DNA of 64,000 nt, taken from the IMG/VR virus record IMGVR_UViG_3300027770_000032; one strand, 5' to 3'. Position 1 is the first letter of the stretch, and each line of letters opens with the position of its first letter. Origin of the DNA: a virus. The position numbers were made by a program, and so were the translations under genes. Below, one piece after another: positions 1,233 to 54,263 of the stretch. The notes under the pieces are model-generated. The model saw only the letters and a program-made list of their open reading frames with translations, ran no database searches and was not told the DNA's origin.

Positions 1233-1793
1233 ATGATCAAAGACATCTTAATGCATACGGATCCGATCTTGAAAGAAGAGATGCCGAAGTTTGATTTCGA
1301 TAATCCTATAGTCAATGCTGTAGAACTCTACAACGATCTTGCTGAGACGATGATCGATGCTGAAGGCATGGGACTTTCGGCCAATCAGATTGGTATACGT
1401 ACTCGTATGTTTGTGATGCGATCAGAGAATGTCATCGGTGTGATCAATCCGAAGATTGTCGACGTATCTTCTGAGACGGTCGTCCTTGAAGAAGGCTGCT
1501 TGTCATATCCGAATCTTTTCGTCAAGATCAAGCGCCCGAAGTTTATTAAGGTTCGCTTCACACATCCTGATGGCACGACTGAGACGAAGAAGTTTGACGG
1601 TATTACTGCTCGTGTATTCCAGCATGAGCTCGATCACTTAAATGGAATTCAGCATACCAAGCGAGCGAATACATATCATATGGAACAAGCAAAAAAGCTA
1701 GCGGCGAAAATAAACCGAAAAAACGGTGTACTTAAACCGAAAAATGAGTTATCTTTAGAAGTACAACAAATGATGGATTGGTTAAAAGCATGA
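1233..1793 (+). CDS. def: Peptide deformylase
   Basis: GMGLSANQIG, EEGCLS and QHELDH motifs. Confidence 0.95.
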   Translation: MIKDILMHTDPILKEEMPKFDFDNPIVNAVELYNDLAETMIDAEGMGLSANQIGIRTRMFVMRSENVIGVINPKIVDVSSETVVLEEGCLSYPNLFVKIKRPKFIKVRFTHPDGTTETKKFDGITARVFQHELDHLNGIQHTKRANTYHMEQAKKLAAKINRKNGVLKPKNELSLEVQQMMDWLKA

Positions 1794-2197
1794 GTGAAGA
1801 TTGGGTAAGAGATATTTCTGGTATGCATCGGTATTACGGTGTCAATGAGAAGATTCAAGATTTTGATGCCGAGAAGCTGAAGCAGTTTCTTCGGTTTCGC
1901 ATGTCGTTCCTCGACGAAGAACTGACTGAAACAAAGAATGCGGTGAACGCCAATGACGCAGAAGAAATCGTCGATGGTCTAATCGACCTTTGCGTGGTGG
2001 CCATCGGTACATTGGATTCGATGGGTATTGATTCGTATGAGGCATGGAATCGTGTTCTACGCGCCAACCTTCAAAAACAAGTCGGAGTAAAGCCAGAACG
2101 ACCGAATCCTCTCGGTCTTCCAGATCTGATCAAACCTGCTGGTTGGAAGGCTCCATCCCATACTAATAATCATGGATTGCTAGCAAAGCTTAAGTAA
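1790..2197 (+). CDS. MazG-like all-alpha NTP pyrophosphohydrolase (possible dCTPase/dUTPase)
   Basis: LDEELTE...EEIVDGLIDL acidic helices, KPAGWKAP tail. Confidence 0.75.
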   Translation: MSEDWVRDISGMHRYYGVNEKIQDFDAEKLKQFLRFRMSFLDEELTETKNAVNANDAEEIVDGLIDLCVVAIGTLDSMGIDSYEAWNRVLRANLQKQVGVKPERPNPLGLPDLIKPAGWKAPSHTNNHGLLAKLK

Positions 2198-2700
2198 TGT
2201 GGATTATTGACAATTTTTTACCTGACTCTTTGTATCAAGATCTTAAATCCTTAATATTAGGAGATAACATCGAATGGAACTATTGTCCAGGTGCTACATA
2301 TAAAGATCAGCACGATGAATTCTATTTTGTGCATAGTGTGATAGCCGAGAATTATACATCACCTCACTTTAAAGATATTAAACCGATACTTTATTTCATG
2401 GATGATAAACTCGGTTTTGTCATTAATAAAATTATAAGAATTAACTGTACGCTTACTACCAATCAAGGTGTACGTAAGCGTACGGCTATGCATATTGATT
2501 TTGACGAACCCCATTACACAGGCATATACTATATCAACGATAACAATGGGCCTACTGTGGTAGAAGATACCGAGGTTGAATGTGTAGCCAATCGATTCTT
2601 ACTATTTGAAGGATCTAAGATGCATAGTGGTACCTTACAAGACGACTGTCATGCCAGAGTTAACATTGTTTTCAATATGCAAGGTTTTTTTCGAAAATAA
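2197..2700 (+). CDS. 2OG-Fe(II) oxygenase
   Basis: IIDNFL start, HID...H...R-x-N facial triad pattern. Confidence 0.75.
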   Translation: MWIIDNFLPDSLYQDLKSLILGDNIEWNYCPGATYKDQHDEFYFVHSVIAENYTSPHFKDIKPILYFMDDKLGFVINKIIRINCTLTTNQGVRKRTAMHIDFDEPHYTGIYYINDNNGPTVVEDTEVECVANRFLLFEGSKMHSGTLQDDCHARVNIVFNMQGFFRK

Positions 2701-2703
2701 ACA

Positions 2704-2732
2704 TGTACAATTAATCCAATTCTTGGTATAGT
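2704..2732 (+). promoter_or_regulatory. Early-type promoter TGTACA-N17-TATAGT
   Basis: Recurrent motif with AAAATAAACA upstream. Confidence 0.8.
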
Positions 2733-2759
2733 GGACCTATAATCAAGAAGGAAATGATA

Positions 2760-3047
2760 ATGACTAAGTTTGTGAAGAGCAATTTTGAATACCATGGCGG
2801 ATACCTCCATTACAATACCGCCGCCGGCGAACGTAAGTTTGTCGCCCGCTTTAAGCGTGGCCCAATTACCAAAGCCAAGTTTCAAGCCGCGCTGATCAAG
2901 TATTACGATGTAGATGCCTACTTCGCCCGTCTCGTTGGACCTTACAACGCATATGGTCATACTCCTTTTGGAATGATGATGTATGACGGCATTCTTTGCC
3001 GCCATTACAAAACTCACGAGCTCATCCTTGACGGAAAGGCACTCTAA
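2760..3047 (+). CDS. Early hypothetical protein, paralog of 35358..35660
   Basis: NFEYHGGYLHY...ERKFVARFK shared with second copy; follows TGTACA promoter and AAGGA SD. Confidence 0.8.
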   Translation: MTKFVKSNFEYHGGYLHYNTAAGERKFVARFKRGPITKAKFQAALIKYYDVDAYFARLVGPYNAYGHTPFGMMMYDGILCRHYKTHELILDGKAL

Positions 3048-3325
3048 TGGATAAGTATGACATCCTTCGCTCTCTTTTGAGTTTACCTCTTTTTAAGGCC
3101 CGTGACTTTGCTATAGCAATTCTTCGTGAAATCCCTGTACCTCCGATGACTAATAGCAGTATACCAGCTATGAGAAAGCGTGCTAGTGTGAATAAACTCA
3201 TTCGTGACATTGAAAATGCAAACTCACCGTTTTCTATTAGTCAGACTATGTGGAATCTTGATCAAGCCAAAGCGGGTTTGAATGTAGCAAACTCCGCGTG
3301 GGACAAACATTACAAAAGTATTTAA
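3047..3325 (+). CDS. Hypothetical protein
   Basis: Translationally coupled ORF (TAATG). Confidence 0.65.
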   Translation: MDKYDILRSLLSLPLFKARDFAIAILREIPVPPMTNSSIPAMRKRASVNKLIRDIENANSPFSISQTMWNLDQAKAGLNVANSAWDKHYKSI

Positions 3326-3333
3326 ATTAAATG

Positions 3334-3362
3334 TGTACATATTATGAAAGATGTGGTAGATT
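3334..3362 (+). promoter_or_regulatory. Early-type promoter TGTACA-N17-TAGATT
   Basis: Recurrent motif. Confidence 0.75.
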
Positions 3363-3368
3363 AAAATT

Positions 3369-3905
3369 ATGACTGAACTATTAGAAAAACTCAAAACCAT
3401 CTTTGCAACAACCGAGCCTGGCTTGGTAATCGACAAAGAATTCCTCGAACTCCGTGAAACTATGAAGTCACGCCTCAATCAAGGCACTCGAAACGACTTC
3501 AAGTTTACCAAAGACGTCGACTGTCTGATGCTCGAAGAATGGCTCATCAAGAAAAACATCGTTCTTGGTCCGCTGCCTGAGCACTGTGAAAAAAGCGGAG
3601 CATGCGTTTATGACGTTCGCGTCGACGATGCTTACATCGATTTCAAATGCATCGATGAGAACCTATACTATAACGTTTCTGAACAAAAGATGAATACACA
3701 CCCATGGGTAGAAGCTGGCATTAAAGCTGGACGCTTGACTCATTATTGTTTTTATCGGATGTATCGGCCTGAAGATCGACCACTCCAAGAAAATGATGTA
3801 GTGACATTCGAATTAATCAATGTACTTAATTCGCAATATGTAGTAGATTCATTAATGCCTTCCAAATTCGATGGCAAATTTTATAAGGTGCCTAAATATG
3901 TCTAA
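3369..3905 (+). CDS. Hypothetical protein, possible PD-(D/E)xK nuclease fold
   Basis: E...YD...IDFK pattern; own promoter. Confidence 0.45.
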   Translation: MTELLEKLKTIFATTEPGLVIDKEFLELRETMKSRLNQGTRNDFKFTKDVDCLMLEEWLIKKNIVLGPLPEHCEKSGACVYDVRVDDAYIDFKCIDENLYYNVSEQKMNTHPWVEAGIKAGRLTHYCFYRMYRPEDRPLQENDVVTFELINVLNSQYVVDSLMPSKFDGKFYKVPKYV

Positions 3906-4278
3906 AGAACGTGAATCAATTAAAGTCCTCCAAGAATGTGCTGAGATCCAGCTAAAGAAGTCGAAAGACTATCAGAACGAAGCATCACGCATTCGCCAAG
4001 CTGACTACTATCCTCGTGGTGTAGCTACCATCACCGATCTCATCTATGCCAAGACTCTGCGTATGCAATCTGTCATCGAAGCGATGGAAAAAGATCCTAC
4101 ATATACGCCTAACTTCGAATCCATTGTAGACTCTGCAATGGATCTGATTAACTATGCGTCGTTCGTCGTTGCTTATTCTCGTGGTAAGATGGACGGTCAA
4201 TCACCAGATCGTGACTTCCTCAATCGTCCTGTCAAGATAGTTGGCGCGGGCGTTGGAGGTAATCTTGCTGAAGGTTGA
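3898..4278 (+). CDS. Nucleotide-modification-associated all-alpha protein (Nmad1/DUF1599-like)
   Basis: KKSKDY...K.LR...ESIVDSAMDLINYA pattern; abuts gp42. Confidence 0.65.
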   Translation: MSKERESIKVLQECAEIQLKKSKDYQNEASRIRQADYYPRGVATITDLIYAKTLRMQSVIEAMEKDPTYTPNFESIVDSAMDLINYASFVVAYSRGKMDGQSPDRDFLNRPVKIVGAGVGGNLAEG

Positions 4279-4915
4279 AGATATTCGTAATCACTTCATT
4301 GATGAATTGATGGACAGTAACTTTGTCACTGATAAGACTGGTGTCAAAACCATCGAGATGATCGGTGCTACATTCGAAGCAGATGAACCAACCATTTTCG
4401 GTGATGTAAATGATGATTACATTCAACGTGAGCTTGAATGGTACGAGTCAATGTCATTGTATGTCGATGATATTCCTGGTGTTACTCCTGCTATCTGGCA
4501 GAAAGTTGCTGATCGTGGTGGCAAGATCAATTCCAATTATGGTTGGGCTATCTATCATAAAGATAACGGTTTGCAATATATGCGTGTCTTCAATCAATTA
4601 TTACATTTGCCAAATAGTCGTCGCGCAGTCATGATCTACACTCGACCTACTATGTGGGAAGATTACAAGCGTGATGGTATGAGCGACTTCATGTGTACTA
4701 ATACTGTACAGTATATGATTCGTAATGAGCAGCTTGTTGCAATCGTTCAGATGCGTTCGAATGATGTTGTCTTCGGTTATCGTAACGACTATGCATGGCA
4801 AAAGCATGTTGCTGATACTTTGACAGCAGACTTAGGATTAACAAAAGAACCAAAAATTATTTGGCATGTTGGTAGTCTTCATGTGTACGAAAGACATTTT
4901 GATAAGGTAAAGTAA
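4265..4915 (+). CDS. gp42: dCMP hydroxymethylase
   Basis: Matches T4 gp42 as recalled: DKTGVKTIE, YIQRELEWY, INSNYGW, DGMSDFMCTNTVQY, MRSNDVVFGYRNDYAWQ with cytosine-specifying Asp; TTG start after GGAGGT. Confidence 0.92.
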   Translation: MLKVEDIRNHFIDELMDSNFVTDKTGVKTIEMIGATFEADEPTIFGDVNDDYIQRELEWYESMSLYVDDIPGVTPAIWQKVADRGGKINSNYGWAIYHKDNGLQYMRVFNQLLHLPNSRRAVMIYTRPTMWEDYKRDGMSDFMCTNTVQYMIRNEQLVAIVQMRSNDVVFGYRNDYAWQKHVADTLTADLGLTKEPKIIWHVGSLHVYERHFDKVK

Positions 4916-5340
4916 TGAAAGACGTTTTATATTATTCAACTCAGAGTGGCCACGAGATCAGTGATGATGTCGTGGTCGTTGGTTTATGCCCTTCGAGTAA
5001 CGATGTCCGTTCGAGATCAGATACGTATTGGCGTCTCAAGAACTGGATGAACATCGTAGGTCAATATGCATACGACTTCTACAACGTGATTCCTGATATT
5101 GTCGACGCAGAGCCGAAGATGGCGAACGTCAATCTTGAGGATATAAATACTAAGCTAAGCAAGTTTAGAGATAAGAAGGTGATTGCTCTCGGCAACTTTC
5201 CTTCGAAGGTACTCGACAAGCTTGGCATAGATCACCTCAAGATCGGTCATCCTTCAATGCGTAATAGAAAGTGGAACGACTTTCATAACGTAACGATGAC
5301 TCTTGAAAATATGAAAGATTATCTGCGTGGAACTCACTGA
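4915..5340 (+). CDS. Uracil-DNA glycosylase superfamily protein
   Basis: VVVGLCPS, VIALG and HPSMRN motifs. Confidence 0.65.
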   Translation: MKDVLYYSTQSGHEISDDVVVVGLCPSSNDVRSRSDTYWRLKNWMNIVGQYAYDFYNVIPDIVDAEPKMANVNLEDINTKLSKFRDKKVIALGNFPSKVLDKLGIDHLKIGHPSMRNRKWNDFHNVTMTLENMKDYLRGTH

Positions 5341-6487
5341 ATATTATGACGAGTATATCCGATATTTCTATCTAGCAAAAGATCAGCAAGCCAAGTGTAA
5401 TCTTGGTTCTGTGCCATACCTCGAATCGAATATGAACGACGACCTCCTCGAGAACGTAGAGCTCTATGACGTCGTCGAACGTAAGTATGCGGGATTCTCA
5501 CAGATTGTCAATGACGTTTTCTATGGATGGACTCCGGAACATCCATACTGGGACAAGATGGAAAAAGGCCATCATACATACCAAAGGAAGACGATTGCCA
5601 CCGACTGGACTGGTAAGCACTCTGACTTTCAACTTGCCGAATGGTTGTATGTGTTCCTTCTCCATCGTGTGACTGGTTCTGGTATCAACTACTCTGTAAA
5701 ACCTTCGGGCTATTCGAACACCGTTCTTCCACATCTCTACAAGTTTAATACTATTGAAGAGATGACGCGATTCATCAACGTTTATCCATATCCATTCTAC
5801 ACGTCGGTAGGTTATCAGTTTCCTTCCTTTCCAAAGCCGAAACCTGGTTACAAGAGAGGTGGAGACTATTATCTTTCTGAGTATGCACCTCGTCTTTGCC
5901 GAGAAATGGCAGAGTGGCTCGAAGGCAATAACTCCAAGAAAGATCTTCGCGAAATCGGAGAATGGATGTTTGACTGGAATACTAAGAATGGACTTCGTGT
6001 TTATCGATTCCAATATGCTGCATTCGTAGCAGACATTGCCGATTGGTTTCCGCAGTATGTCAATCTTGAAAGCCCATTCTATTATGGTACGAATGCGGTA
6101 GAATGTATCTCATATCTTGCTAACAATACAGATAAGTTGCAAAAAGAAAAGTTCCTCGACAAGGTAATGGAAAAGATTTATGCAGATACAGGCGCGTTCC
6201 CTTACAATGCAGAAGATGTATGCTGCGACTTTATCCGATGGGTCGAGAACTATGTGAAACCGGGTGGAGCTTACAATCATCTCGATTTTGACTCACTGTG
6301 GTCGTCATGCAAAATTAAAGATCACCCGTATGGTCGACAAAAGGCAATGCTGGATCTAGGCCTCGTGAGAACTTTCAATGGTATGACAAACCATCCATCC
6401 GATGATACTGTTCTCAAGCAAGTTGGCATGAGTGTACAAGACTATAAGGCAAAAGTAAATGAACATGTTAACACAACTGCTCGGTGA
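5327..6487 (+). CDS. aGPT-Pplase / amino acid:DNA transferase-like protein (helical glycosylase-like fold)
   Basis: FQYAAFVAD...P...GTNAVECI...NAEDVCCDFIRW resembles the family C-terminal pattern; cluster context. Confidence 0.55.
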   Translation: MELTEYYDEYIRYFYLAKDQQAKCNLGSVPYLESNMNDDLLENVELYDVVERKYAGFSQIVNDVFYGWTPEHPYWDKMEKGHHTYQRKTIATDWTGKHSDFQLAEWLYVFLLHRVTGSGINYSVKPSGYSNTVLPHLYKFNTIEEMTRFINVYPYPFYTSVGYQFPSFPKPKPGYKRGGDYYLSEYAPRLCREMAEWLEGNNSKKDLREIGEWMFDWNTKNGLRVYRFQYAAFVADIADWFPQYVNLESPFYYGTNAVECISYLANNTDKLQKEKFLDKVMEKIYADTGAFPYNAEDVCCDFIRWVENYVKPGGAYNHLDFDSLWSSCKIKDHPYGRQKAMLDLGLVRTFNGMTNHPSDDTVLKQVGMSVQDYKAKVNEHVNTTAR

Positions 6488-7466
6488 GCATGAATTTGAT
6501 ATTGAATATCCGAATATTGCCGAAGTCGAGTATGACGACAAAGGAAAGCCGAAGCAATCATGGATGAAAGACTGGACTCAAGAGGAGAGGACTGAAAAGT
6601 TCTTTGAGTTTTGTCGTGAATATGATTTGCGTCGAGACTCTCTTCTTCGTGACAACTATCAACAGTTCAGTCATCGCATGCATTGGCATGAATGTCCTTT
6701 CGTTGATGAGATCAAGGAAGTCGAAGATTTTAAGACTGTACTCGAAGCATGCCTTATCTTCTCTTTTAGCAATGAACACTGGAAAACTTTTAAAGCATGG
6801 CAATCTGGAGGTCCGGAAGCTATGCGTACTCGTTTTATATCTGAACGTCATGCTCGCTCAGATCTTTTTCAAATCTATTATCCAAAAGATACGAGTGTAA
6901 AAGATTGGCTGTGTGAAGTTCCTACGGCATTTGCAGAGAAGCATGCTGAAAGCTTGTTTGAGAAACGCAATCGACCTTATACGATGATGGAGTTTGCTAA
7001 GAAGTTGAACACGATCTTCGTCGAGGAATTTGGTTTTCGTAATGCCATGTATCCTTGTAAGAACGCAGCTCGTCACGTGGCTATGAGTCATCCCGATTGG
7101 GTGGATCCTGATTCTTTCCTTCATGGCGGTACAGGTTATTTCGACGGACTCAGCCAAGTTTTTGATTGTCCGAATCTGATGAGTAAGAGTAAGTATGATA
7201 TTAACGAGTTCGGTGAGTATGTTGCTTTGAATGATGCGGCGAAGATGCAAGTCGAGCATATGGATTATCTGAAGGCACATCTATCAAATCCCATTCATAC
7301 GCATAACTATCTGAACCTCGAAGACAAGCTTTGTATGCATTATAAATATATGGCAGTCAAGCTTGGCGTGAAGTCGCAGACGATGCAAATCCCATATGAT
7401 TGGGTATATCCCATCGAATGGTCTCTCAAGACGAATAGATATGATAGGCTGACGAATGGCACATAA
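6459..7466 (+). CDS. Second aGPT-Pplase-like paralog
   Basis: FFEFCREY...D.LL, HPDWVDPDSFLHGGTG, NLEDKLCMHYKY parallel the preceding ORF. Confidence 0.5.
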   Translation: MNMLTQLLGEHEFDIEYPNIAEVEYDDKGKPKQSWMKDWTQEERTEKFFEFCREYDLRRDSLLRDNYQQFSHRMHWHECPFVDEIKEVEDFKTVLEACLIFSFSNEHWKTFKAWQSGGPEAMRTRFISERHARSDLFQIYYPKDTSVKDWLCEVPTAFAEKHAESLFEKRNRPYTMMEFAKKLNTIFVEEFGFRNAMYPCKNAARHVAMSHPDWVDPDSFLHGGTGYFDGLSQVFDCPNLMSKSKYDINEFGEYVALNDAAKMQVEHMDYLKAHLSNPIHTHNYLNLEDKLCMHYKYMAVKLGVKSQTMQIPYDWVYPIEWSLKTNRYDRLTNGT

Positions 7467-8358
7467 TAAACATGTCACCGATGGCGTGAACAAAGACGTA
7501 GGCATTTACGGTTGGGAAAAAGCCAGAGAATATTATCTGAGTCTTGCCGAATCATGGACCGATCCTTATCCAGATCCAGTCGTCACAATTCATGACGGTG
7601 TACGATGTGTACGAGACGATCTCATCACTGGAACGAAAGTTCGTGGTGGTGATTGTCTTATTTCAAGAATGAATCAATCGACTATTGTATATGTTCAACC
7701 TCGCACTGGTCTTGCAGGTGTTTCTCTTCTTGATGTGGCCAAGCGTCATAATAAGAAAGTAAAGTTGTTCATGCCTTCTTCACAAACAATCTCTCATCAT
7801 CAGGCATGCTGTATTGAACAAGGAGCAGATGTCGAGTTTCATCGTATTGCTGCAATGCCAAATCTAAACAAGATCGCCAAAGATTGGGCAGATTCTCAAG
7901 AAGATGCCTTCTTCGTTCCTCTTGGTTTAAAGCATGAACTCGTCACCGCTGGTATTGTGAAGGCTGCATCAAAGATCGAAGCGCCTGATGAAGTCTATGT
8001 CGCCATCTCAACAGGTGTACTCTCACGTGCAATGCAGATCGCGTGGCCAAATGCCAAATTCCACTCAGTTGCAGTGTCTCGTAATCTGAAAGCTGGTGAA
8101 CTTGGCCGTGCTGATGTCATCTCTGAACCGATGCCATTTCAACAAAGCGAGAAGGCAGAGAATCTTCCACCGTTTCCATCGATTGATACTTATGATGGAA
8201 AAGTATGGAAATACATTCCAAAAAATACTGGTAGGAACATCTTATTTTGGAATGTCGGTAAACAACCAGTATTGAATGATCCTACAATCTATGATCGCGT
8301 AAATAGTTACCGCGATTGGCAAAAAAATGATGTACAATATAGGCAACTTGATATATAA
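7456..8358 (+). CDS. PLP-dependent enzyme (fold type II) of DNA-hypermodification clusters
   Basis: VRDDLITGTKVR (PLP Lys), VAISTGVL phosphate loop, YDGK, LFWNVG. Confidence 0.8.
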   Translation: MAHNKHVTDGVNKDVGIYGWEKAREYYLSLAESWTDPYPDPVVTIHDGVRCVRDDLITGTKVRGGDCLISRMNQSTIVYVQPRTGLAGVSLLDVAKRHNKKVKLFMPSSQTISHHQACCIEQGADVEFHRIAAMPNLNKIAKDWADSQEDAFFVPLGLKHELVTAGIVKAASKIEAPDEVYVAISTGVLSRAMQIAWPNAKFHSVAVSRNLKAGELGRADVISEPMPFQQSEKAENLPPFPSIDTYDGKVWKYIPKNTGRNILFWNVGKQPVLNDPTIYDRVNSYRDWQKNDVQYRQLDI

Positions 8359-8359
8359 G
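8331..8359 (+). promoter_or_regulatory. Early-type promoter TGTACA-N17-TATAAG
   Basis: Recurrent motif at gene boundary. Confidence 0.6.
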
Positions 8360-8366
8360 GGATAAT

Positions 8367-9434
8367 ATGAACATATTACTCACATCCCCATTCACTCCTG
8401 TTTCTTCCAACATTCACTCGCATCGGGCCGCTCAGGCTGCCATCTATGCTGAACAGTTGAGTAGTTTAGGTAACGTCCATCTCGATCGTACTGGTAACAT
8501 TCATCAGGATACGGTATGGATAGATGCTACTGGTAACATTCATTCTGATCCGCCACAAGTTGATAGAGTCTATGTCTATCATGGCAATGATTGGTTTGGC
8601 TCACTAAACCTTTTCGGTGGCATGAAAAATTATAGTAATATCGATAAGTTGATTCTCTACTCGAATCTAAAGGCTCCTGTCTATTCTTTATGGATCGATC
8701 ATCCGAAGTACAGTGAGATGTTAAAGCCCCGACTCGATGGTGATATCCATCCTTTCTGGCATCTTGTTGATTGGGAAAATCTAAAGAAGATCGAAGACAC
8801 TGCCATTACAGTTCGTGAAATTGAAACTACGAATCGTGCAGTGGCCGGTGATAGCCATGCTATTTGCATGTATCGTCCAGGTTGGTTTGTCAATTCGGTT
8901 CCCTTCAAGACTCTCCACGGTGCACTCAAGGAAGGTCTACAAACTTTTATCGAGCCTCATCATGAGATCGCAGAGTTCTACTTCGGTAACATCGACGTAC
9001 GTCACCATCTTTGCCGTCAACCTGATCCTGAACAAGCAACACGAGATTTGGCGAATAGATACTATGAACAGCTCTCTCGACTAGATCTTGCAAAAGTTTC
9101 TGCATATGAGTTGCTTCCTATCGAGCATGAATCGCGAGTCCTTCCAAAGACTGGATACTATAAAGGAACTCCATTCTATGGTTCATGGGAAGATCGCAAT
9201 AGATGTCGTCTTATCTTTAAGGATGAGATGAGAAAGCTTTGTGCTCAAGGTAGTGTCAACCTCATTGAATGGGTTGATCCGCTTCTCAATGACAGAGGTG
9301 AGCTCGACTTTGAATGCATGGAAAAACCAAAGTCGGTCCATCTCTCGCGCAATTCATATCCGCATTGGCAAGGCCGCAAGTGGTCTGGCCTATCTGAAAA
9401 CAAACCCGCAACTCTAGAGGATTTCTTTGCATGA
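8367..9434 (+). CDS. Protein with SGNH hydrolase/acyltransferase-like C-terminal domain
   Basis: GDSH, FGNID and SVHL blocks. Confidence 0.55.
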   Translation: MNILLTSPFTPVSSNIHSHRAAQAAIYAEQLSSLGNVHLDRTGNIHQDTVWIDATGNIHSDPPQVDRVYVYHGNDWFGSLNLFGGMKNYSNIDKLILYSNLKAPVYSLWIDHPKYSEMLKPRLDGDIHPFWHLVDWENLKKIEDTAITVREIETTNRAVAGDSHAICMYRPGWFVNSVPFKTLHGALKEGLQTFIEPHHEIAEFYFGNIDVRHHLCRQPDPEQATRDLANRYYEQLSRLDLAKVSAYELLPIEHESRVLPKTGYYKGTPFYGSWEDRNRCRLIFKDEMRKLCAQGSVNLIEWVDPLLNDRGELDFECMEKPKSVHLSRNSYPHWQGRKWSGLSENKPATLEDFFA

Positions 9435-9451
9435 AAACTAGTAAGTATATA

Positions 9452-9892
9452 ATGAACGAACATGATGATAATACCGTATCCATCACTAAGAAAGGTCCAA
9501 CAGGTGGACCACAGTTTGAAAGTATGGCAGGATTAAATGGTCCTCCAGGTATATACGTCGAGAATCCTTCGGGCACACACATAAATTTTATTCCAGGAAT
9601 TACGGCGAAGCATCTCAGTGTGTATAAATACAATGAAGGCGAATCACTCAAAGAAATTCAGTCTTACATCGATGCTACTTACGAGCAGCATTATTCCCGA
9701 AATAAATATCAAGCAACAGAATTCATCATTGACGCCGGTCATGGTACTGGTTTTAATATCGGGAATATGATGAAGTACACTCAACGATACGGTCGTAAGG
9801 GTGATCCCGCCGAATGGCGAAAGGACCTGATGAAGGTTATCCACTACGCAATTATGCAACTCCACGTTCATGATACTGAAAATAAAGATTAA
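9452..9892 (+). CDS. DUF3310-like nucleotide kinase/pyrophosphatase family protein
   Basis: TYEQHY...GFNIGNMMKYTQRYGRK...DLMKVIHYA. Confidence 0.7.
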   Translation: MNEHDDNTVSITKKGPTGGPQFESMAGLNGPPGIYVENPSGTHINFIPGITAKHLSVYKYNEGESLKEIQSYIDATYEQHYSRNKYQATEFIIDAGHGTGFNIGNMMKYTQRYGRKGDPAEWRKDLMKVIHYAIMQLHVHDTENKD

Positions 9893-9901
9893 GGATTAAT
9901 T

Positions 9902-10876
9902 ATGGGTATTGAAATTAATGTTCCAATGGAAGAGCTCAGAAAGCGCAAGCTCTTTATTGCCGCGCCAATGTATGGCGGCCAATGCGCTGGTATGTTTACA
10001 CGATCAATCGCAGATCTCTCTGCACTTTGTACGCACTACGGAATTCAAGTCAGATTTTACTTCTTGTTTAACGAGTCATTGATCACTCGAGCGCGTAACT
10101 ACTGCGCAGACGAATTCATGCGTTCAGGTGATACTCACTTGATGTTCATCGACTCTGATATTGGATTCAATCCAAATGACGTGATCGCACTGCTTGCTCT
10201 ACAAAATCCAGATCCATCAGTAGATAACTATGATATCATCGCTGGTCCATATCCGAAGAAGTGCATCAGTTGGGAAAAGATTAAGCTTGCTGTCGATAAG
10301 GGTATGGCTGACGAGAATCCAAACGATCTCGAAAAGTTTGTTGGTGATTACGTCTTTAATCCAACTGGTGAAACACGAGAGATTGCTCTTGGACAACCAG
10401 TCGAAGTGCTTGAATCTGGAACTGGATTCATGATGATTCGGCGCCAAACTTTCGAGAAGTTTCAAGAAGCTTATCCTCAGCAGTTCTACAAACCTGATCA
10501 CGTTCGTACAGAACACTTCGACGGTAGCCGTGAAATCATGGCTTACTTCGATACGCCGATCGATCATAAGCGTACGAACATTAATGCCGAGCTTGAAGAA
10601 TACTTGAAAAAGAATCCAAAAGCAAAAGCAAAAGAGATTGTAGACTTTGTGAAAGATCCGAACAATGGTGTAATCAAAGAATATTCGAAACGTTACCTCT
10701 CCGAAGACTATATGTTCTGTCAGTGGGTTCGTAATGCTGGAATGCATGTATGGCTTTGCCCATGGATGGAACTGAAGCACGTTGGTTCGTATGTATTCGG
10801 TGGTTCTCTGCCAGATATTGCCCGTATCGGTGCAGCTGCAACTGCAGATCCTTCTGCACTCGGTAAAAACAAATAA
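9902..10876 (+). CDS. GT-A fold glycosyltransferase-like protein
   Basis: ESLITRARN, FIDSDI (DxD), GTGFMMI, LSEDYMFC, HVG. Confidence 0.75.
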   Translation: MGIEINVPMEELRKRKLFIAAPMYGGQCAGMFTRSIADLSALCTHYGIQVRFYFLFNESLITRARNYCADEFMRSGDTHLMFIDSDIGFNPNDVIALLALQNPDPSVDNYDIIAGPYPKKCISWEKIKLAVDKGMADENPNDLEKFVGDYVFNPTGETREIALGQPVEVLESGTGFMMIRRQTFEKFQEAYPQQFYKPDHVRTEHFDGSREIMAYFDTPIDHKRTNINAELEEYLKKNPKAKAKEIVDFVKDPNNGVIKEYSKRYLSEDYMFCQWVRNAGMHVWLCPWMELKHVGSYVFGGSLPDIARIGAAATADPSALGKNK

Positions 10877-29404: not shown

Positions 29405-29433
29405 TAATAATGCGGCCAGATACTGGAGATCCA

Positions 29434-31941
29434 ATGAATTTTTATACCAATGTTACTCGTCATCGAAATCAAATTTTAGTTCGCGGAATATCTGACGGCA
29501 AACCTGTCAAGTTTTCTGTGAAATACAAACCTTATTTATTCGTTCAAGCAAGTGCACAAACCGAACATAAGAACCTGAAAGGTGAATATGTCGGCAAGAT
29601 GCAATTCGATTCCATGTCTGAAACACGAGAGTTTCTACAAAGTTACGAAAACGTGGCAGGCATGAACATCTACGGCCTCTCCGATTGGCCTTACATGTAT
29701 ATTTATGACAAGTATAAGGGTGAGATCAAGTATGATCCTGCCCTCGTTTCAGTTTGTTCGATCGATATCGAGACCAGCATTGAAGGTGGTTTCCCCGACA
29801 TCGAGAAAGCAGACAATGAAATCACAGCGATTACCATCGGCCGCAATGGTAGAAAGACTACTTTTGGTTGCGGTGAATATCAGGAGCATCAAGACAATGT
29901 ACAATATTACAAATGCGCAGACGAATCTGCACTCTTACTCGCCTTTCTCGAAGTCTGGAACGGATCACTCTATTCGCCTGACGTTGTCACAGGCTGGAAC
30001 ATCGAGTTCTTCGACATTCCGTATCTTGTCAACAGGATTCGAAAGGTTCTTGGAGATGATCACGCTGAACGTCTCTCTCCCTGGAAAATACTTCGTGAAT
30101 ACAAAGTTAACAGCCGTGGACGAGACTGCATTTGCTATGCCCCTATCGGCATCGCCGTCCTTGATTACATCAAACTCTACAGGAAGTTTACGTACACAGA
30201 GCAGGAATCTTACCGACTTGACTACATCGCTCAAGTTGAACTCGGCGAAGGAAAGCTTGACTATCGCGATGAAGGTTATACCGACCTCGATGACCTTCGG
30301 CTAAGAAACTTTCAACTCTACATCGAATATAACGTTCGAGATGTTGAGATCGTTGAGAGACTCGAAGACAAGCTAAAGCTCATCGAGCTGGTCTATGCTT
30401 TGGCTTATGACGCTAAGGTAAACTATGAAGATACCATGGCAACCGTGAAGCAATGGGACGTGATCACTCACAACTATCTTCTCGATCGAAACATCGTGGT
30501 TCCTCTCAACGATAAGAATAAACCCGACCGAGCCTTCGTAGGCGGATATGTCAAAGATCCAAAGGTCGGCATGAGTAAATGGGTTGTGTCGTTCGATCTA
30601 AACTCCCTTTATCCTCACCTTATTATGCAGTACAACATCTCGCCAGAGACGCTTGTCACTCGCTTAAAAGATAAGGTGTCGATCGACGACCTACTTGTTG
30701 GTGGCGCTAGTCAGTTCGGTGGCTATCTTGATAAAACGAACTGCACTATCGCCGCCAACCTTTGTATCTATACAAAAGAAAAGCGTGGCTTCTTGCCATC
30801 GATTATGGATCGTATGTATGACGATCGTACTCGATATAAGAAGCAGATGATCAAGTGTAAGAAAGAATACGAGAAGACGAAAGAACCCCAGCTCGTCAAA
30901 GAAATTGCTCGTCTCGATAACATGCAGATGGCCAAGAAGATTCAGTTGAACTCGGCTTATGGTGCTCTCGGCAACAAGTGGTTTCGCTGGTTTGACGTGA
31001 ACAATGCCGAAGCCATTACCACATCTGGTCAGCTCAGCATTCGTTGGATCGAGAATAAGCTCAACGACTATCTCAACAAACTGTTGAAGACCGAGAACTT
31101 TGACTATGTATTGGCTTCCGATACCGATTCAGTGTATGTGACTCTCGAATACCTCGTGAAGAATGTATTCGGTGATGATGTTCCTGAAACGAAGAAGGTG
31201 ATCCAATATATCGACAAGATCTGTAAGGAACGAATTGAACCATTCATCGACCGTTCTTATCAAGAGCTTGCCGAATATATGCGTGCATATGATCAGAAGA
31301 TGCAAATGAAGCGAGAGAACATCGCAGATAAAGGTATCTGGAAGGCCAAGAAGATGTACATCTTGAATGTATGGAACTCTGAAGGTGTTGAGTATGAGAA
31401 GCCGAAGTTGAAGATGACAGGCATCGAAGCAGTTCGATCCTCGACTCCGACTGCATGTCGTGATGCCATTAAGAAATCTCTCGAGATTATTATGGCTGGA
31501 TCCGAATCGGATCTTCAGAAATATGTGGCCAACTTTAAGTCAGAGTTTTCTTCTCTTGGATTTGACGACATTGCTTTTACTCGCGGTGTCAAGGATATCG
31601 AGAAATATTGGGTAGGTGGTAGGTTCCAAAGCCAGACACCTATTCACGTTCGCGGTTCAGTCGTCTTCAATGAAATGTTGAAGAAGAAGAAACTGACAAA
31701 TAAATATCAATTGATTACCAGCGGTGAAAAGATTAAGTTCGCGTATCTCAAAAACCCGAACCCGACACAAGACTACGTGATCGCATGTCCGAATGGTCTA
31801 CCAAAAGAATTGAAAATGGAAACCTATATCGACTATGCGGTGCAGTTCGAGAAAGGCTATCTTAGCCCTATCGAGTCTATCACAAATACAATGGGCTGGC
31901 AAGCAGAAAAAAGAGCAACACTCGAGGATTGGCTAAACTAA
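29434..31941 (+). CDS. gp43: Family B DNA polymerase
   Basis: DIET exonuclease, SFDLNSLYP, KIQLNSAYG, DTDS. Confidence 0.98.
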   Translation: MNFYTNVTRHRNQILVRGISDGKPVKFSVKYKPYLFVQASAQTEHKNLKGEYVGKMQFDSMSETREFLQSYENVAGMNIYGLSDWPYMYIYDKYKGEIKYDPALVSVCSIDIETSIEGGFPDIEKADNEITAITIGRNGRKTTFGCGEYQEHQDNVQYYKCADESALLLAFLEVWNGSLYSPDVVTGWNIEFFDIPYLVNRIRKVLGDDHAERLSPWKILREYKVNSRGRDCICYAPIGIAVLDYIKLYRKFTYTEQESYRLDYIAQVELGEGKLDYRDEGYTDLDDLRLRNFQLYIEYNVRDVEIVERLEDKLKLIELVYALAYDAKVNYEDTMATVKQWDVITHNYLLDRNIVVPLNDKNKPDRAFVGGYVKDPKVGMSKWVVSFDLNSLYPHLIMQYNISPETLVTRLKDKVSIDDLLVGGASQFGGYLDKTNCTIAANLCIYTKEKRGFLPSIMDRMYDDRTRYKKQMIKCKKEYEKTKEPQLVKEIARLDNMQMAKKIQLNSAYGALGNKWFRWFDVNNAEAITTSGQLSIRWIENKLNDYLNKLLKTENFDYVLASDTDSVYVTLEYLVKNVFGDDVPETKKVIQYIDKICKERIEPFIDRSYQELAEYMRAYDQKMQMKRENIADKGIWKAKKMYILNVWNSEGVEYEKPKLKMTGIEAVRSSTPTACRDAIKKSLEIIMAGSESDLQKYVANFKSEFSSLGFDDIAFTRGVKDIEKYWVGGRFQSQTPIHVRGSVVFNEMLKKKKLTNKYQLITSGEKIKFAYLKNPNPTQDYVIACPNGLPKELKMETYIDYAVQFEKGYLSPIESITNTMGWQAEKRATLEDWLN

Positions 31942-40455: not shown

Positions 40456-41621
40456 CAACCTTTAAAGATTTCCTTGCCGAAGAGCTCGACGAAAGTAAAC
40501 TTACGCATCTTGAGCATGCTGAAGATCACGTGATTAATGCTGGTCATGAAGGCTTTTCTCATGCCTATCATAATCTGAAAGATGTGCATGATAAGTTGAC
40601 TGGTAAGAAGAACGATACCAAAGTGACTATGAAGTATGATGGTTCTCCTTCTGTAGTATTTGGTCGTCATCCTCAAACCGGTCGATTCTTCGTGGCATCA
40701 AAGTCTGCCTTTAATAAGAATCCGAAGATTAACTACACCGAAGAAGATATTCAAAAGAATCACGGTCATGCTCCGGGTTTGGTAGAAAAACTCAAAGCAG
40801 CTTTACAACATCTTCCGAAAGTCACACCGAAGAAAGGTGTTTTCCAAGGTGATATTATGCATACGCCTAATGATGTGCATGAATCTGATGGTCGCGTGCA
40901 CTTTACTCCAAATACGATTACGTATTCTGCTGCGAGAGCTTCAGCGCAAGGCCAAGCTGCTTTAAACGCAAAGATAGGCATTGCCGTTCATACGAAGTAT
41001 AATGGTAATAATCTCGAAGATATGCAAGCCGAACACGGCGCTGATTTGAGCGAGTTTGGATTGCATAGAGATGTGCATTTGATTTCTACTGCTCATCGCC
41101 TTGATAATATTAAATATACTCCTCAGCAACGAGAAAGATTTGCAAGGGCGATGGCTGCTGCAGCAAAGGCGAATAAAAAAACAAAGCCTGAAACGTATGA
41201 AGCGATCAAAGGCCACGAGGTTCCACTCAAGACTTACATTAATCATACTGTTCGTACCGGTACAAGACCGAATGTCGAAGGTTTTATGAATCACTACATC
41301 AAGTCGCAACAGAAAAGGGTTGATAGTGTAAAAACCGAAAAAGCAAAAGCAGCAAAAACTGCCGAGATGGAAACGGCAATTGGTCATGTTCAACGCAATC
41401 GTGCGCATTTTGAAAATGTATTAAATCAACATAAGGCGCTGCAGAAGGCCAAGAACATATTAACGAATACACTTTCAAGTAATTCAGAATTTGATCATAG
41501 TATTAATGGAAAGAAAGCAAAGCCTGAAGGCTTTGTGGTAGTCAGACATAATCGTCCTACTAAGTTTGTTGATCGCGCTGAGTTCTCGGCGGCCAATTTT
41601 AATAGAGGTAAACCAGCATGA
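40452..41621 (+). CDS. Polynucleotide-ligase-fold protein (DUF6267-like) with capsid-targeting-like N-terminus
   Basis: KYDG (motif I), QGD, EGFVV (IV), K (V); starts MTTFKDFLAE. Confidence 0.7.
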   Translation: MTTFKDFLAEELDESKLTHLEHAEDHVINAGHEGFSHAYHNLKDVHDKLTGKKNDTKVTMKYDGSPSVVFGRHPQTGRFFVASKSAFNKNPKINYTEEDIQKNHGHAPGLVEKLKAALQHLPKVTPKKGVFQGDIMHTPNDVHESDGRVHFTPNTITYSAARASAQGQAALNAKIGIAVHTKYNGNNLEDMQAEHGADLSEFGLHRDVHLISTAHRLDNIKYTPQQRERFARAMAAAAKANKKTKPETYEAIKGHEVPLKTYINHTVRTGTRPNVEGFMNHYIKSQQKRVDSVKTEKAKAAKTAEMETAIGHVQRNRAHFENVLNQHKALQKAKNILTNTLSSNSEFDHSINGKKAKPEGFVVVRHNRPTKFVDRAEFSAANFNRGKPA

Positions 41622-53564: not shown

Positions 53565-54263
53565 ATGAGTGAAGTAAATTTAATCGGTCTGACGAAACCG
53601 AGTGCCTATACAGAATGTAATACAGCAAATGAATTGGTTGCATGGGCAGCAAGAGTATCCAACCCATCGAATCAAAATAACGCAGCAACAGCACCGAAAC
53701 TGGTTCAATATCTTATTCGCAATCAACACTGGTCACCACTGGAGATGGTACATGTATCAATGGAAATTAAAACAACTCGTGACATCGCTCGGCAAATACT
53801 TCGCCATCGATCCTTTTCCTTCCAAGAATTTTCACAGAGATATGCAGACCCGACTCAAGAACTTGGACTCGGCACTCGAGAAGCACGACTACAAGACGCC
53901 AAGAATCGACAGAACTCAATTGAAGTAGATGATAAAACAGTTAATACTGAATGGGAACATATACAGCGCCGTATGATCTATCATGCAAAGAAAGAGTATA
54001 ACACTGCAATTAAACTTGGCATGGCAAAAGAACAAGCACGAGCATTGCTTCCAGAAGGATTGACAGAATCGACTATCATCATGGCTGGTTCGCTCCGTTC
54101 ATGGGTGCATTACTGCCAGTTGCGTATGGATCGTGCGACTCAGAAAGAACATCGCATTGTTGCCGAGCAATGCTGGGAAATAATTTGTCAGCACTTTCCT
54201 GATGTGAAAGCTGCTTTGGATAGTATGGCTGCACAAGCAGAGTTTGAGAGGAAGTTACCATGA
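53565..54263 (+). CDS. thyX: Flavin-dependent thymidylate synthase
   Basis: HWSPLE, RHRSFSFQEFSQRY, EQAR, TQKEHR. Confidence 0.96.
   Translation: MSEVNLIGLTKPSAYTECNTANELVAWAARVSNPSNQNNAATAPKLVQYLIRNQHWSPLEMVHVSMEIKTTRDIARQILRHRSFSFQEFSQRYADPTQELGLGTREARLQDAKNRQNSIEVDDKTVNTEWEHIQRRMIYHAKKEYNTAIKLGMAKEQARALLPEGLTESTIIMAGSLRSWVHYCQLRMDRATQKEHRIVAEQCWEIICQHFPDVKAALDSMAAQAEFERKLP

What the first reader, a model, noticed from the sequence alone, without database searches (positions are those of the whole stretch)
1790..10876. Candidate new cytosine hypermodification pathway: T4 gp42 coupled to enzymes known from thymidine hypermodification
Seen: 4265..4915 is a near-canonical dCMP hydroxymethylase (RSNDVVFGYRND, Asp where dUMP enzymes have Asn). 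dTMP is supplied separately by ThyX (53565). Tightly linked genes encode two aGPT-Pplase/amino acid:DNA transferase-like paralogs, a fold-II PLP enzyme, an SGNH protein, two nucleotide-binding helical proteins and a GT-A glycosyltransferase; a MazG-like pyrophosphatase and a 2OG oxygenase lie upstream. Established: T4 glucosylates 5hmC with alpha/beta-gt, whereas aGPT-Pplase-type transferases plus PLP decarboxylases act on 5hmU DNA in ViI- and M6-like phages. Inference: here that chemistry is applied to 5hmC, giving an amino-acid-, amine- or aminosugar-substituted cytosine. No T4-type alpha/beta-gt or obvious DNA kinase is visible in the window, and the transferase-family call rests on weak motifs.
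Basis: partly seen in the sequence, partly recalled or inferred. Interest (0 to 1): 0.85.

Follow-up and report, generated by a model that had tools for sequence, protein, structure and literature searches.

The report
Kinase-less hydroxymethylcytosine DNA hypermodification cassette
An uncultured aquatic T4-like phage makes T4's hydroxymethylcytosine, but next to that gene it carries distant relatives of the enzymes that attach and trim amino acids on thymine in other phages, so its DNA probably holds a decorated cytosine that has not been described chemically.

Summary
The genes are real and form one tightly packed + strand operon just upstream of gp45/44/62.

- **4241-4915** is a T4-type dCMP hydroxymethylase. 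It carries every published signature of a 5hmC maker and lacks the marker of the RB69-type 5-hydroxycytosine enzymes.
- **5327-6487 and 6459-7466** are remote paralogs. In high-confidence models, the best solved-structure match for both is the PaMx11 glycine:DNA transferase. Both keep an invariant E-D-x-x-C where those transferases have E-T-x-x-C with the catalytic cysteine. Neither reaches the Pfam ADDT threshold.
- **7456-8358** belongs to the family of the M6 gp52 DNA decarboxylase, and the PLP lysine is conserved.
- **8367-9434** has an invariant GDSH motif, a weak T4 beta-glucosyltransferase N-domain likeness and a polymerase-like clamp-binding tail. In other phages it is fused to a 5327-like domain. 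Its fold was not tested.

Across 80 related viral contigs the core is hydroxymethylase + 5327-type + 8367-type (+ PLP). The second paralog is optional. The GT-A gene and the 2OG-like gene are not linked to the cassette. No DNA kinase was found.

The product is unknown, and I found no paper describing such a pathway. The scan has noted this same cassette before, on at least 53 other genomes.

The parts
1778..2197 (+). MazG/PRA-PH-type nucleotide pyrophosphohydrolase. It is a candidate dCTP-clearing enzyme, the functional analogue of T4 gp56.
   Evidence: PF01503 E 5.4e-10; phrog_671 nucleotide pyrophosphohydrolase E 4e-21. It sits upstream of gp42 in 45 of 80 related loci, many of which are truncated. 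The dCTPase role is inference.
3871..4278 (+). DUF1599 protein ('nucleotide modification associated domain 1'), always directly upstream of gp42.
   Evidence: PF07659 E 2e-4, below the cut-off; phrog_1485 E 8e-13. Found in 56 of 80 loci, adjacent to gp42. Function unknown.
4241..4915 (+). dCMP hydroxymethylase (gp42 orthologue, 5hmdCMP synthase). The true start may be the TTG at 4265.
   Evidence: E 2.4e-87 to T4 dCH 1B5E. It has the catalytic Cys (FMCTNT), Asp at the ThyA N177, L143 and D169 equivalents, and the RSND..G.RND signature. The same signature is present in all 65 linked orthologues. Signature rules are taken from PMC13326640.
4915..5340 (+). Small UDG-superfamily-like protein, translationally coupled to gp42. 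It is an optional member.
   Evidence: PF03167 E 0.0018, below the cut-off. No PDB sequence hit. Present in 40 of 80 loci.
5327..6487 (+). AADT-fold, HhH-glycosylase-superfamily protein with an invariant E296-D297-x-x-C300 motif. It is the universal core enzyme of the cassette and the candidate cysteine-dependent group transferase acting on 5hmC in DNA.
   Evidence: AF2 pLDDT 96.1. In an unbiased search of 48,161 chains the top hit is PaMx11 gp46 (8Z2M; Z 9.6, 206 residues aligned, rmsd 4.0), followed by DUF2419 and HhH glycosylases. E296 and C300 are invariant in 56 of 56 sequences and D297 in 52 of 56. Present in 80 of 80 loci. Found fused to the 8367-type protein in P0269 and others.
6459..7466 (+). 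Second AADT-fold paralog with an invariant E288-D289-K-x-C292 motif. It is an optional module.
   Evidence: AF2 pLDDT 90.8. VIA Z 9.6 to 8Z2N_B (222 residues aligned, rmsd 4.1); the next match is an HhH glycosylase at Z 7.5. hhalign to the 5327 family gives prob 94.9%, E 4.7e-8. Present in 47 of 80 loci and absent from complete cassettes such as L031, L044 and L048.
7456..8358 (+). Fold-type-II PLP enzyme of the M6 gp52 family; candidate decarboxylase or trimmer of a DNA-bound amino acid.
   Evidence: phrog_7093 E 6.3e-39 over profile positions 15-279 of 279. M6 gp52, shown to decarboxylate C-alpha-glycinylthymidine in DNA (PMC8989533), scores E 2e-159 to the same family. K61 aligns with M6 K36, and the ISxG loop and PFP..YD.K.W motif are shared. 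Present in 70 of 80 loci.
8367..9434 (+). Core partner enzyme. It has an N-terminal region weakly like the acceptor-binding domain of T4 beta-glucosyltransferase, a C-terminal part with an invariant GDSH motif (SGNH-like, unproven), and a clamp-binding-like tail KPATLEDFFA.
   Evidence: phrog_13881 E 1.7e-44. Invariant residues are listed. Likeness to beta-glucosyltransferase: BLASTP E 0.011, hhalign E 2.8e-4 at prob 41%, and PF09198 hits the same region of two orthologues at E about 2e-3. The tail scores 26 against the gp43 tail, versus a next best of 8 among 370 ORF tails. Fusion with the 5327-type domain: P0269, 38% identity, E 2e-47. Present in 71 of 80 loci.
9431..9892 (+). DUF3310 protein. 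This domain is often fused to phage nucleotide kinases. Its role is unknown; it may act on the nucleotide pool.
   Evidence: PF11753 E 4.7e-7. The PHROG hits include 'nucleotide kinase' families in which the domain forms the C-terminal part. Present in 55 of 80 loci.
9902..10876 (+). GT-A-like protein with a DSD motif. It is a neighbour of gp45 and probably not a core part of the cassette.
   Evidence: phrog_1574 E 2.6e-62; Pfam hits are only E > 0.07. Stenotrophomonas phage DLP_6 has it beside gp45 but has no gp42 or 5327-type gene. Relatives G006 and G001, 99-100% complete, have the cassette but no homologue of this gene.
29410..31941 (+). gp43 DNA polymerase (context). Its C-terminal tail KRATLEDWLN is the template for the tail of 8367-9434.
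   Evidence: PF00136 E 1e-32; tails compared.
53565..54263 (+). ThyX flavin-dependent thymidylate synthase (context). It gives an independent dTMP supply.
   Evidence: PF02511 E 2.8e-41.

Best explanation
This is a cytosine hypermodification cassette that starts from 5-hydroxymethylcytosine.

Shown by sequence signatures: the gp42 orthologue makes 5hm-dCMP.

Inferred:
- The MazG-like enzyme lowers dCTP, so 5hmC replaces C during replication, as in T4.
- Modification then continues on the DNA. The 8367-9434 protein docks on the gp45 sliding clamp through a polymerase-like C-terminal peptide and meets 5hmC through a domain like the acceptor-binding domain of beta-glucosyltransferase.
- It works together with the 5327-6487 protein, an enzyme with the fold of amino acid:DNA transferases. 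The invariant Cys300 of that protein would attack C6 of the flipped-out pyrimidine, so that the C5-CH2-O substituent leaves and a nucleophile adds, as in PaMx11 gp46. Here an Asp (E-D-x-x-C) takes the place of the Thr that faces O4 of uracil. That fits a cytosine N4 amino group.
- Because no DNA kinase is present, the GDSH domain probably supplies the activation, for example by forming an ester, or the group transfer itself.
- The M6 gp52-type PLP enzyme then decarboxylates or otherwise trims an appended amino acid carrying a free alpha-amine.
- The second paralog (6459-7466) adds an optional further step.

The expected end product is an amino-acid-derived, probably amine-bearing, C5-methylene-substituted cytosine. 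Its exact structure is unknown.
For: - gp42: E 2.4e-87 to T4 dCH with all four signature residues. The signature is kept in 65 of 65 linked orthologues.
- Fold: both helical proteins have PaMx11 gp46 as their top solved-structure match (Z 9.6 each), one of them in a search that did not rely on Foldseek. The following hits are all from the HhH-glycosylase superfamily.
- Motif: E-D-x-x-C is invariant in both families, against invariant E-T-x-x-C in 10 AADTs, where C247 is the proposed nucleophile and E243/T244 hold the metal at O4. The end points of the structural alignment (311 to 258) fit C300 lying on C247.
- PLP enzyme: it belongs to the same PHROG as the experimentally proven M6 gp52, with the lysine conserved (PMC8989533).
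- Action on DNA: the clamp-binding-like tail is an outlier at about 6 sd, there is a beta-glucosyltransferase N-domain likeness, and natural fusions join the 8367-type and 5327-type domains.
- Linkage: gp42, the 5327-type, PLP and 8367-type genes are syntenic in 80 IMG/VR loci. The distant phages that carry the fusion protein also carry an Asp-type TS homologue.
- No Pfam ADDT or HMUDK_hel match in five related genomes, two of them 99% complete.
Against: - Nothing here shows chemistry.
- Neither helical protein reaches Pfam ADDT, and hhalign against an AADT alignment is not significant.
- Z 9.6 is modest for an all-helical protein. DUF2419 and AGOG follow within 1-2 Z units.
- I could not obtain a residue-by-residue superposition, so the equivalence of C300 and C247 is inferred.
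- The fold of 8367-9434 was not predicted. SGNH is suggested only by GDSH and by an Atlas score of 0.90 with few shared features. Every beta-glucosyltransferase likeness is below threshold.
- A P-loop DNA kinase that lacks the helical domain could lie outside the window.
- The PLP family also occurs beside ParB genes in siphophages with a different context.
Confidence: 0.6

Rival explanations
1. Ester or acyl modification only. The 8367-9434 chimera acylates the hydroxyl of 5hmC, comparable to the published 5-carbamoyloxymethylcytosine. The AADT-fold proteins serve only as base-flipping or DNA-binding partners, like the helical domain of 5-hmdU DNA kinases. The PLP enzyme makes or trims the donor rather than acting on DNA.
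For: - The minimal conserved unit is gp42 + 5327-type + 8367-type, sometimes as one polypeptide. This has the same architecture as P-loop kinase + HMUDK_hel.
- One family member weakly hits HMUDK_hel (E 0.01).
- 5hmC O-carbamoylation is a precedent (PMC8670742).
Against: - The invariant Glu-Asp-x-x-Cys in both helical families suggests catalysis, not just binding.
- The PLP enzyme is of the family that acts on DNA-bound amino acids.
- The acyltransferase fold is unproven.
Confidence: 0.17
2. The two helical proteins are DNA glycosylases or repair or counter-defence enzymes of the HhH superfamily. They might, for example, excise unmodified C/U or 5hmU, or protect against host glycosylases that attack modified bases. 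They would not be modification enzymes.
For: HhH glycosylases (AGOG, AlkA, EndoIII, MutY) fill the hit lists below gp46. A UDG-like gene sits next to them.
Against: - The best match in both searches is the transferase.
- There was no Pfam HhH-GPD hit at E <= 10.
- An invariant Cys in an E-x-x-x-C context is the transferase hallmark.
- There is strict linkage to a hydroxymethylase and to an M6 gp52-type PLP enzyme.
Confidence: 0.1
3. Nucleotide-pool pathway. The helical proteins act on free nucleotides or nucleosides, as the DUF2419 queuosine hydrolase does, and the modified dNTP is made before replication.
For: DUF2419 structures score Z 8.2-8.5, close to gp46. The cassette is flanked by pool enzymes: MazG, DUF1599, DUF3310.
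Against: The polymerase-like clamp tail and the beta-glucosyltransferase N-domain likeness of the fused partner point to DNA as the substrate. The PLP family acts on DNA in M6.
Confidence: 0.07

Closest known systems
Thymidine hypermodification pathways of phages M6, PaMx11, ViI and PhiW-14 (dUMP hydroxymethylase, 5-hmdU DNA kinase, amino acid:DNA transferase, PLP decarboxylase; PMC8989533, PMC11472151)
   Same: - A TS-family hydroxymethylase supplies a hydroxymethylpyrimidine.
- A helical, glycosylase-like enzyme with a Glu-x-x-x-Cys motif is encoded beside a fold-II PLP enzyme of the same PHROG as M6 gp52.
- The logic is post-replicative.
- There are two aGPT-Pplase-like proteins per system.
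   Different: - The base is cytosine (Asp-type synthase), not uracil.
- There is no P-loop DNA kinase and no HMUDK_hel or ADDT Pfam match.
- The motif is E-D-x-x-C instead of E-T-x-x-C.
- A GDSH-motif protein with a clamp-binding tail stands in the pathway and is sometimes fused to the helical domain.
- Sequence similarity to AADTs is not detectable by HMM.
T4 5hmC glucosylation (gp42, gp56, alpha- and beta-glucosyltransferase)
   Same: - gp42 orthologue at about 63% identity.
- The modification genes sit next to gene 42 in a T4-like replication module.
- The N-terminal region of 8367-9434 is weakly like the acceptor domain of beta-glucosyltransferase.
   Different: - There is no UDP-glucose-binding half and no alpha-glucosyltransferase.
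- A MazG-type enzyme takes the place of gp56.
- The added enzymes are of the amino-acid-transfer type, not sugar transferases.
RB69/DLP3 arabinosyl-5-hydroxycytosine pathway (PMC13326640)
   Same: A T4-like phage with a gp42-like TS homologue of similar identity (about 61%), followed by a modification gene cluster.
   Different: Those synthases carry Asn at the ThyA D169 position and make 5-hydroxycytosine. The window's enzyme keeps Asp, as do all 65 linked orthologues. No NDP-arabinose genes or DNA arabinosyltransferases are present.
5-carbamoyloxymethylcytosine from environmental phages (MetaGPA, PMC8670742)
   Same: A non-sugar group is put on the hydroxyl of 5hmC made by a TS homologue. 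It was found in uncultured phages.
   Different: That system uses a carbamoyltransferase. Nothing similar is present here.

Membership tests
T4-type dCMP hydroxymethylase (5hmdCMP synthase) | Full-length homology to T4 gp42 / TS fold | tested here: met
   E 2.4e-87 and 295 bits to 1B5E over residues 10-221.
T4-type dCMP hydroxymethylase (5hmdCMP synthase) | Catalytic Cys; Asp at the ThyA N177 position (dCMP specificity); Asp/Glu at the L143 position | tested here: met
   FMCTNT, RND and SDFMC align with T4 C148, D179 and D145. Rules taken from PMC13326640.
T4-type dCMP hydroxymethylase (5hmdCMP synthase) | Asp kept at the ThyA D169 position (Asn marks 5-hydroxycytosine synthases) | tested here: met
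   RSND in the window and in 65 of 65 linked orthologues.
Amino acid:DNA transferase (Pfam PF18724 ADDT, formerly aGPT-Pplase2) | Match to the family HMM above the cut-off | tested here: not met
   No hit at E <= 10 for either protein. One of 56 family members hits at E 0.00099. No hit in five related genomes. hhalign to a 10-sequence AADT alignment is not significant.
Amino acid:DNA transferase (Pfam PF18724 ADDT, formerly aGPT-Pplase2) | Fold of PaMx11 gp46 (8Z2M/8Z2N) | tested here: met
   It is the top match for both models: Z 9.6 with 206 residues aligned at rmsd 4.0, and Z 9.6 with 222 residues aligned at rmsd 4.1. This is a modest Z for helical proteins.
Amino acid:DNA transferase (Pfam PF18724 ADDT, formerly aGPT-Pplase2) | E-T-x-x-C active-site motif with the nucleophilic Cys | tested here: inconclusive
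   The window proteins have an invariant E-D-x-x-C with the same spacing, the same order after the HhH-like motif, and consistent alignment end points. No residue-level superposition was available.
Amino acid:DNA transferase (Pfam PF18724 ADDT, formerly aGPT-Pplase2) | Partner 5-hmdU DNA kinase that makes the phosphorylated substrate | tested here: not met
   No HMUDK_hel match in the window proteins or in five related genomes. No kinase domain was found in the cluster.
M6 gp52 / ViI gp226-type PLP-dependent DNA decarboxylase | Family membership and the Schiff-base lysine | tested here: met
   phrog_7093 E 6.3e-39 for the window protein and E 2e-159 for M6 gp52. K61 aligns with M6 K36. Pfam PALP gives only E 2e-4, below the cut-off.
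M6 gp52 / ViI gp226-type PLP-dependent DNA decarboxylase | Decarboxylation of a DNA-bound amino acid | not testable with these tools
   Needs an enzyme assay.
SGNH/GDSL hydrolase-acyltransferase | Block I GDS nucleophile motif | tested here: met
   G161-D162-S163-H164 are invariant in 25 diverse homologues.
SGNH/GDSL hydrolase-acyltransferase | Blocks II, III and V (Gly, GxND, DxxH) and the flavodoxin-like fold | tested here: inconclusive
   G(N/S)ID and SVH are conserved but do not fit the canonical patterns. There was no Pfam or PDB sequence hit. The Atlas hint to Lipase_GDSL scores 0.90 with 143 shared features.
T4 beta-glucosyltransferase (PF09198) | N-terminal acceptor-binding domain | tested here: inconclusive
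   BLASTP E 0.011. hhalign prob 41%, E 2.8e-4 over 49 columns. PF09198 hits the same region of two orthologues at 14.4 bits, against a cut-off of 27.
T4 beta-glucosyltransferase (PF09198) | C-terminal UDP-glucose-binding domain | tested here: inconclusive
   No similarity was seen beyond residue 111 in BLASTP or hhalign. The C-terminal part carries GDSH instead.
GT-A glycosyltransferase as a pathway member | Co-inheritance with the hydroxymethylase cassette | tested here: not met
   The GT-A gene occurs without gp42 or the 5327-type gene in DLP_6. The cassette occurs without the GT-A gene in the 99-100% complete records G006 and G001.

The most novel reading that the evidence does not exclude
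A widespread lineage of aquatic T4-like phages replaces cytosine with a chemically undescribed base. The base would be 5hmC carrying an amino-acid-derived substituent. A cysteine-dependent AADT-fold enzyme would install it without prior phosphorylation. Activation or group transfer would instead come from a sliding-clamp-tethered chimera of a beta-glucosyltransferase-like acceptor domain and a GDSH acyl-enzyme domain. This would be a new way of activating a DNA base for substitution.
Probability: 0.4. Interest if true: 0.9.

Novelty: new variant of a known kind. Interest (0 to 1): 0.78.

Why it matters
All amino-acid-type DNA hypermodifications known so far sit on thymine and need a DNA kinase. 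The known 5hmC and 5-hydroxycytosine decorations are sugars or a carbamoyl group.

This cassette would extend amino-acid-type chemistry to cytosine, with a different activation step. That would mean a new natural DNA base, and possibly a new enzyme class acting on 5hmC. Such enzymes could be useful for labelling or sequencing 5hmC.

The cassette is abundant: at least 588 IMG/VR stretches and about 950-1,600 protein clusters in metagenomes. The base would therefore be common in freshwater and marine viromes. It would affect restriction and CRISPR sensitivity, and it could bias sequencing of these phages.

Tried and rejected
- **DNA search:** megablast of the cluster against 50,697 phage records gave no match. 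tblastn of the 5327 protein against phages gave no match.
- **Paralogs:** BLASTP between the two paralogs found nothing. Only profiles see the relation.
- **Family scans:** NCBIfam gave nothing useful. Pfam at E <= 10 gave nothing for 5327-6487.
- **PDB by sequence:** profile or sequence searches for the 5327 family, the 8367 family, the PLP enzyme, the GT-A protein, the UDG-like protein and DUF1599 gave no meaningful hits.
- **AADT by profile:** hhalign of both helical families against PaMx11 gp46 alone and against a 10-sequence AADT alignment was not significant. One low-probability alignment put the AADT Cys on F215, which I rejected. It contradicts the order of the motifs and the range of the structural alignment.
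- **Aeromonas phage 31:** hhalign of the C-terminal half of ORF233c to either helical family found nothing.
- **ESM Atlas:** it holds no model for the 8367 protein or for a 92% identical homologue.
- **RB69-type reading:** I considered that gp42 is an RB69-type 5-hydroxycytosine synthase and rejected it, because Asp is kept at the D169 position.
- **GT-A and 2OG as members:** I considered both as pathway members and rejected them on comparative grounds.

Full report
**Setting.** The window comes from an uncultured T4-like myovirus. gp45, gp44 and gp62 follow the cluster. gp45 is at most 44% identical to cyanomyovirus clamps. The cluster has no nucleotide-level match among 50,697 phage records. 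From 3369 to 10876 the + strand genes overlap or are separated by no more than 9 bases, so they form an operon-like block.

**The hydroxymethylase.** 4241-4915 matches T4 dCMP hydroxymethylase at E 2.4e-87. A 2026 paper shows that gp42-like enzymes of RB69 and many other Straboviridae make 5-hydroxycytosine instead of 5hmC, and that Asn at the E. coli ThyA D169 position marks them (PMC13326640). I therefore checked the signature.
- The window has RSNDVVFGYRND. Asp is kept at the 169 position and Asp sits at the N177 position.
- It has SDFMC, with Asp at the L143 position and the catalytic Cys.
- This is the T4 pattern. All 65 orthologues linked to the cassette in related contigs have it too.
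- Identity alone does not separate the two types. T4-like and RB69-like phages both score 61-64%.
- ThyX at 53565 gives an independent dTMP supply.

**The two helical proteins.**
- BLASTP sees no relation between 5327-6487 and 6459-7466. Profiles built from 56 and 47 homologues align at prob 94.9%, E 4.7e-8 over the C-terminal halves.
- AlphaFold models are confident, at pLDDT 96.1 and 90.8.
- For 5327-6487, a search that aligns the model to all 48,161 representative chains puts PaMx11 gp46 first. This enzyme is the 5-phosphomethyl-dU glycinyltransferase, an AADT. The match is Z 9.6 with 206 residues aligned at rmsd 4.0. Next come DUF2419 (Z 8.5), AGOG (Z 8.2) and a run of HhH DNA glycosylases.
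- For 6459-7466, Foldseek's only probable hit is the same enzyme (prob 0.91). VIA-align gives Z 9.6 and 8.9 for its two entries, against 7.5 for the next fold.
- These Z values are modest for helical proteins. Both lists are coherent, however, and both are headed by the same enzyme.
- At sequence level the proteins are not ADDT members. There is no Pfam hit, only one family member hits at E 0.001, there is no hit in related genomes, and hhalign is not significant.
- The published gp46 mechanism uses Cys247 to attack C6, with Glu243 and Thr244 holding a metal at O4. In ten diverse AADTs the E-T-x-x-C motif is invariant.
- Both window families have an invariant E-D-x-x-C with the same spacing: E296/D297/C300 and E288/D289/C292. 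It lies downstream of an HhH-like F..AD..D motif, as in AADTs.
- The structural alignment ends at model residue 311 and chain residue 258. That is the offset expected if C300 lies on C247.
- The Thr-to-Asp change parallels the Asn-to-Asp switch that turns a dUMP enzyme into a dCMP enzyme. This last point is my inference.

**The PLP enzyme.** 7456-8358 matches phrog_7093 at E 6.3e-39 over almost the whole profile. M6 gp52 is the founding type of that family (E 2e-159). It was shown to decarboxylate C-alpha-glycinylthymidine in DNA, and it is modelled on a fold-II template (PMC8989533). K61 aligns with M6 K36, and two further motifs are shared.

**The 8367-9434 protein.**
- Twenty-five homologues, down to 29% identity, share invariant residues. 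These include GDSH (161-164), G.ID.R.H, P.E...R..P and ME...S.H.
- Pfam and PDB sequence searches are silent. The Atlas gives only a hint to GDSL lipases.
- **Fusion.** In P0269 and six other metagenomic proteins this protein is fused N-terminally to a 5327-type domain (38% and 40% identity). The phages that carry the fusion also encode an Asp-type TS homologue.
- **Tail.** Its C-terminal tail KPATLEDFFA resembles the tail of this phage's gp43, KRATLEDWLN. Its BLOSUM score of 26 compares with a next best of 8 among 370 ORF tails, whose mean is -10 and sd 6. T4-family polymerases bind gp45 through this peptide (established knowledge).
- **Beta-glucosyltransferase likeness.** Residues 58-111 resemble residues 52-100 of T4 beta-glucosyltransferase: BLASTP E 0.011, hhalign E 2.8e-4. 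The Pfam model of that domain hits the same region of two orthologues, and it is the only hit in each of those genomes (E about 2e-3, below the cut-off).
- Together these three points indicate an enzyme that works on DNA at hydroxymethylcytosine.

**Comparative genomics.**
- At least 588 IMG/VR stretches encode the 5327 family. The best 80 loci were read.
- Counts in those 80 loci, many of them truncated: 5327-type 80, 8367-type 71, PLP 70, gp42 64, DUF1599 56, DUF3310 55, GT-A 49, 6459-type 47, MazG 45, UDG-like 40, 2OG-like 1.
- The 6459-type gene is missing from otherwise complete cassettes. Some lineages show only gp42, the 5327-type and the 8367-type genes.
- The GT-A gene is decoupled in both directions. 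Stenotrophomonas phage DLP_6 has it beside gp45 without gp42 or a 5327-type gene. Two 99-100% complete relatives have the cassette but no GT-A gene.
- No HMUDK_hel match exists in five related genomes.

**Reading.** The cassette most likely converts 5hmC in DNA into a non-sugar, amino-acid-derived derivative, by chemistry related to thymidine hypermodification but without the kinase.
- Shown: the identity of gp42, the fold and paralogy of the helical proteins, the family of the PLP enzyme, the linkage and the fusions.
- Inferred: Cys300 catalysis, Asp297 as the cytosine reader, the acyl or activating role of the GDSH domain, clamp docking, and the nature of the product.
- Rivals: an ester-only modification, glycosylase or repair roles, and a nucleotide-pool pathway.

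**Literature.** Four full-text searches found no description of AADT-like enzymes tied to 5hmC. The pelagimyophage survey lists 'two thymidylate synthases' without further comment.

**Earlier notes of this scan.** They report the same cassette in at least 53 other genomes, with the same 'kinase-less' reading. I treated those notes as leads. I retested the clamp tail and the beta-glucosyltransferase-like domain myself.

Noticed in passing
L001:7001-9388 (Aeromonas phage 31 ORF233c; also phages 44RR2.8t, 25, Aes508 and others): Cultured Aeromonas T4-like phages carry gp42 (58% identity) and a 795-aa protein. Its first 334 residues belong to the 8367-type family (phrog_13881, E 1.7e-111). Its C-terminal half contains an E-I-A-C-C stretch reminiscent of the E-D-V-C-C of 5327-6487, but hhalign finds no relation. 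These phages could serve as a laboratory handle on the pathway.
   Followed up: partly
window 2197-2700: This ORF matches phrog_274, annotated 'DNA endonuclease V', at E 5.8e-36. In Pfam it gives only a faint 2OG-Fe(II) oxygenase hit (E 0.088). It is present in just 1 of 80 related loci, so it is a variable accessory gene and not part of the cassette.
   Followed up: partly
L002:6082-6792 (Microcystis phage Mae-JY30) and Erythrobacter phages vB_EliS_R6L and ZS04: Homologues of the PLP enzyme (29-33% identity) are annotated 'DNA modification methylase' and sit next to ParB/sulfiredoxin genes. The annotation is probably wrong. The context suggests another, different DNA-modification system.
   Followed up: no
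window 9902-10876; L095:11001-11858: The GT-A-like gene is a conserved left neighbour of gp45 in distant T4-like phages: Stenotrophomonas DLP_6 at 60% identity, and Rhizobium and Sinorhizobium phiM12-type phages at 49-52%. It occurs there independently of any hydroxymethylase. Its substrate is unknown.
   Followed up: partly
window 4915-5340: A 141-aa UDG-superfamily-like protein is translationally coupled to gp42 (PF03167 E 0.0018). It is present in about half of the related cassettes. No PDB sequence match was found.
   Followed up: partly
window 41618-42229 and 56681-57457: A cytidylyltransferase-like protein (PF01467, E 3e-6) lies at 41618-42229. A calcineurin-like phosphoesterase lies between the two ribonucleotide reductase subunit genes at 56681-57457. 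Neither was examined further.
   Followed up: no
L088, L089, L090: Phages that carry the fused 8367+5327-type protein encode divergent TS homologues, about 26% identical to gp42. They keep Asp at the ThyA 169, 177 and 143 positions, so they are probably cytosine hydroxymethylases of a separate branch. One sits beside a dCMP deaminase.
   Followed up: partly
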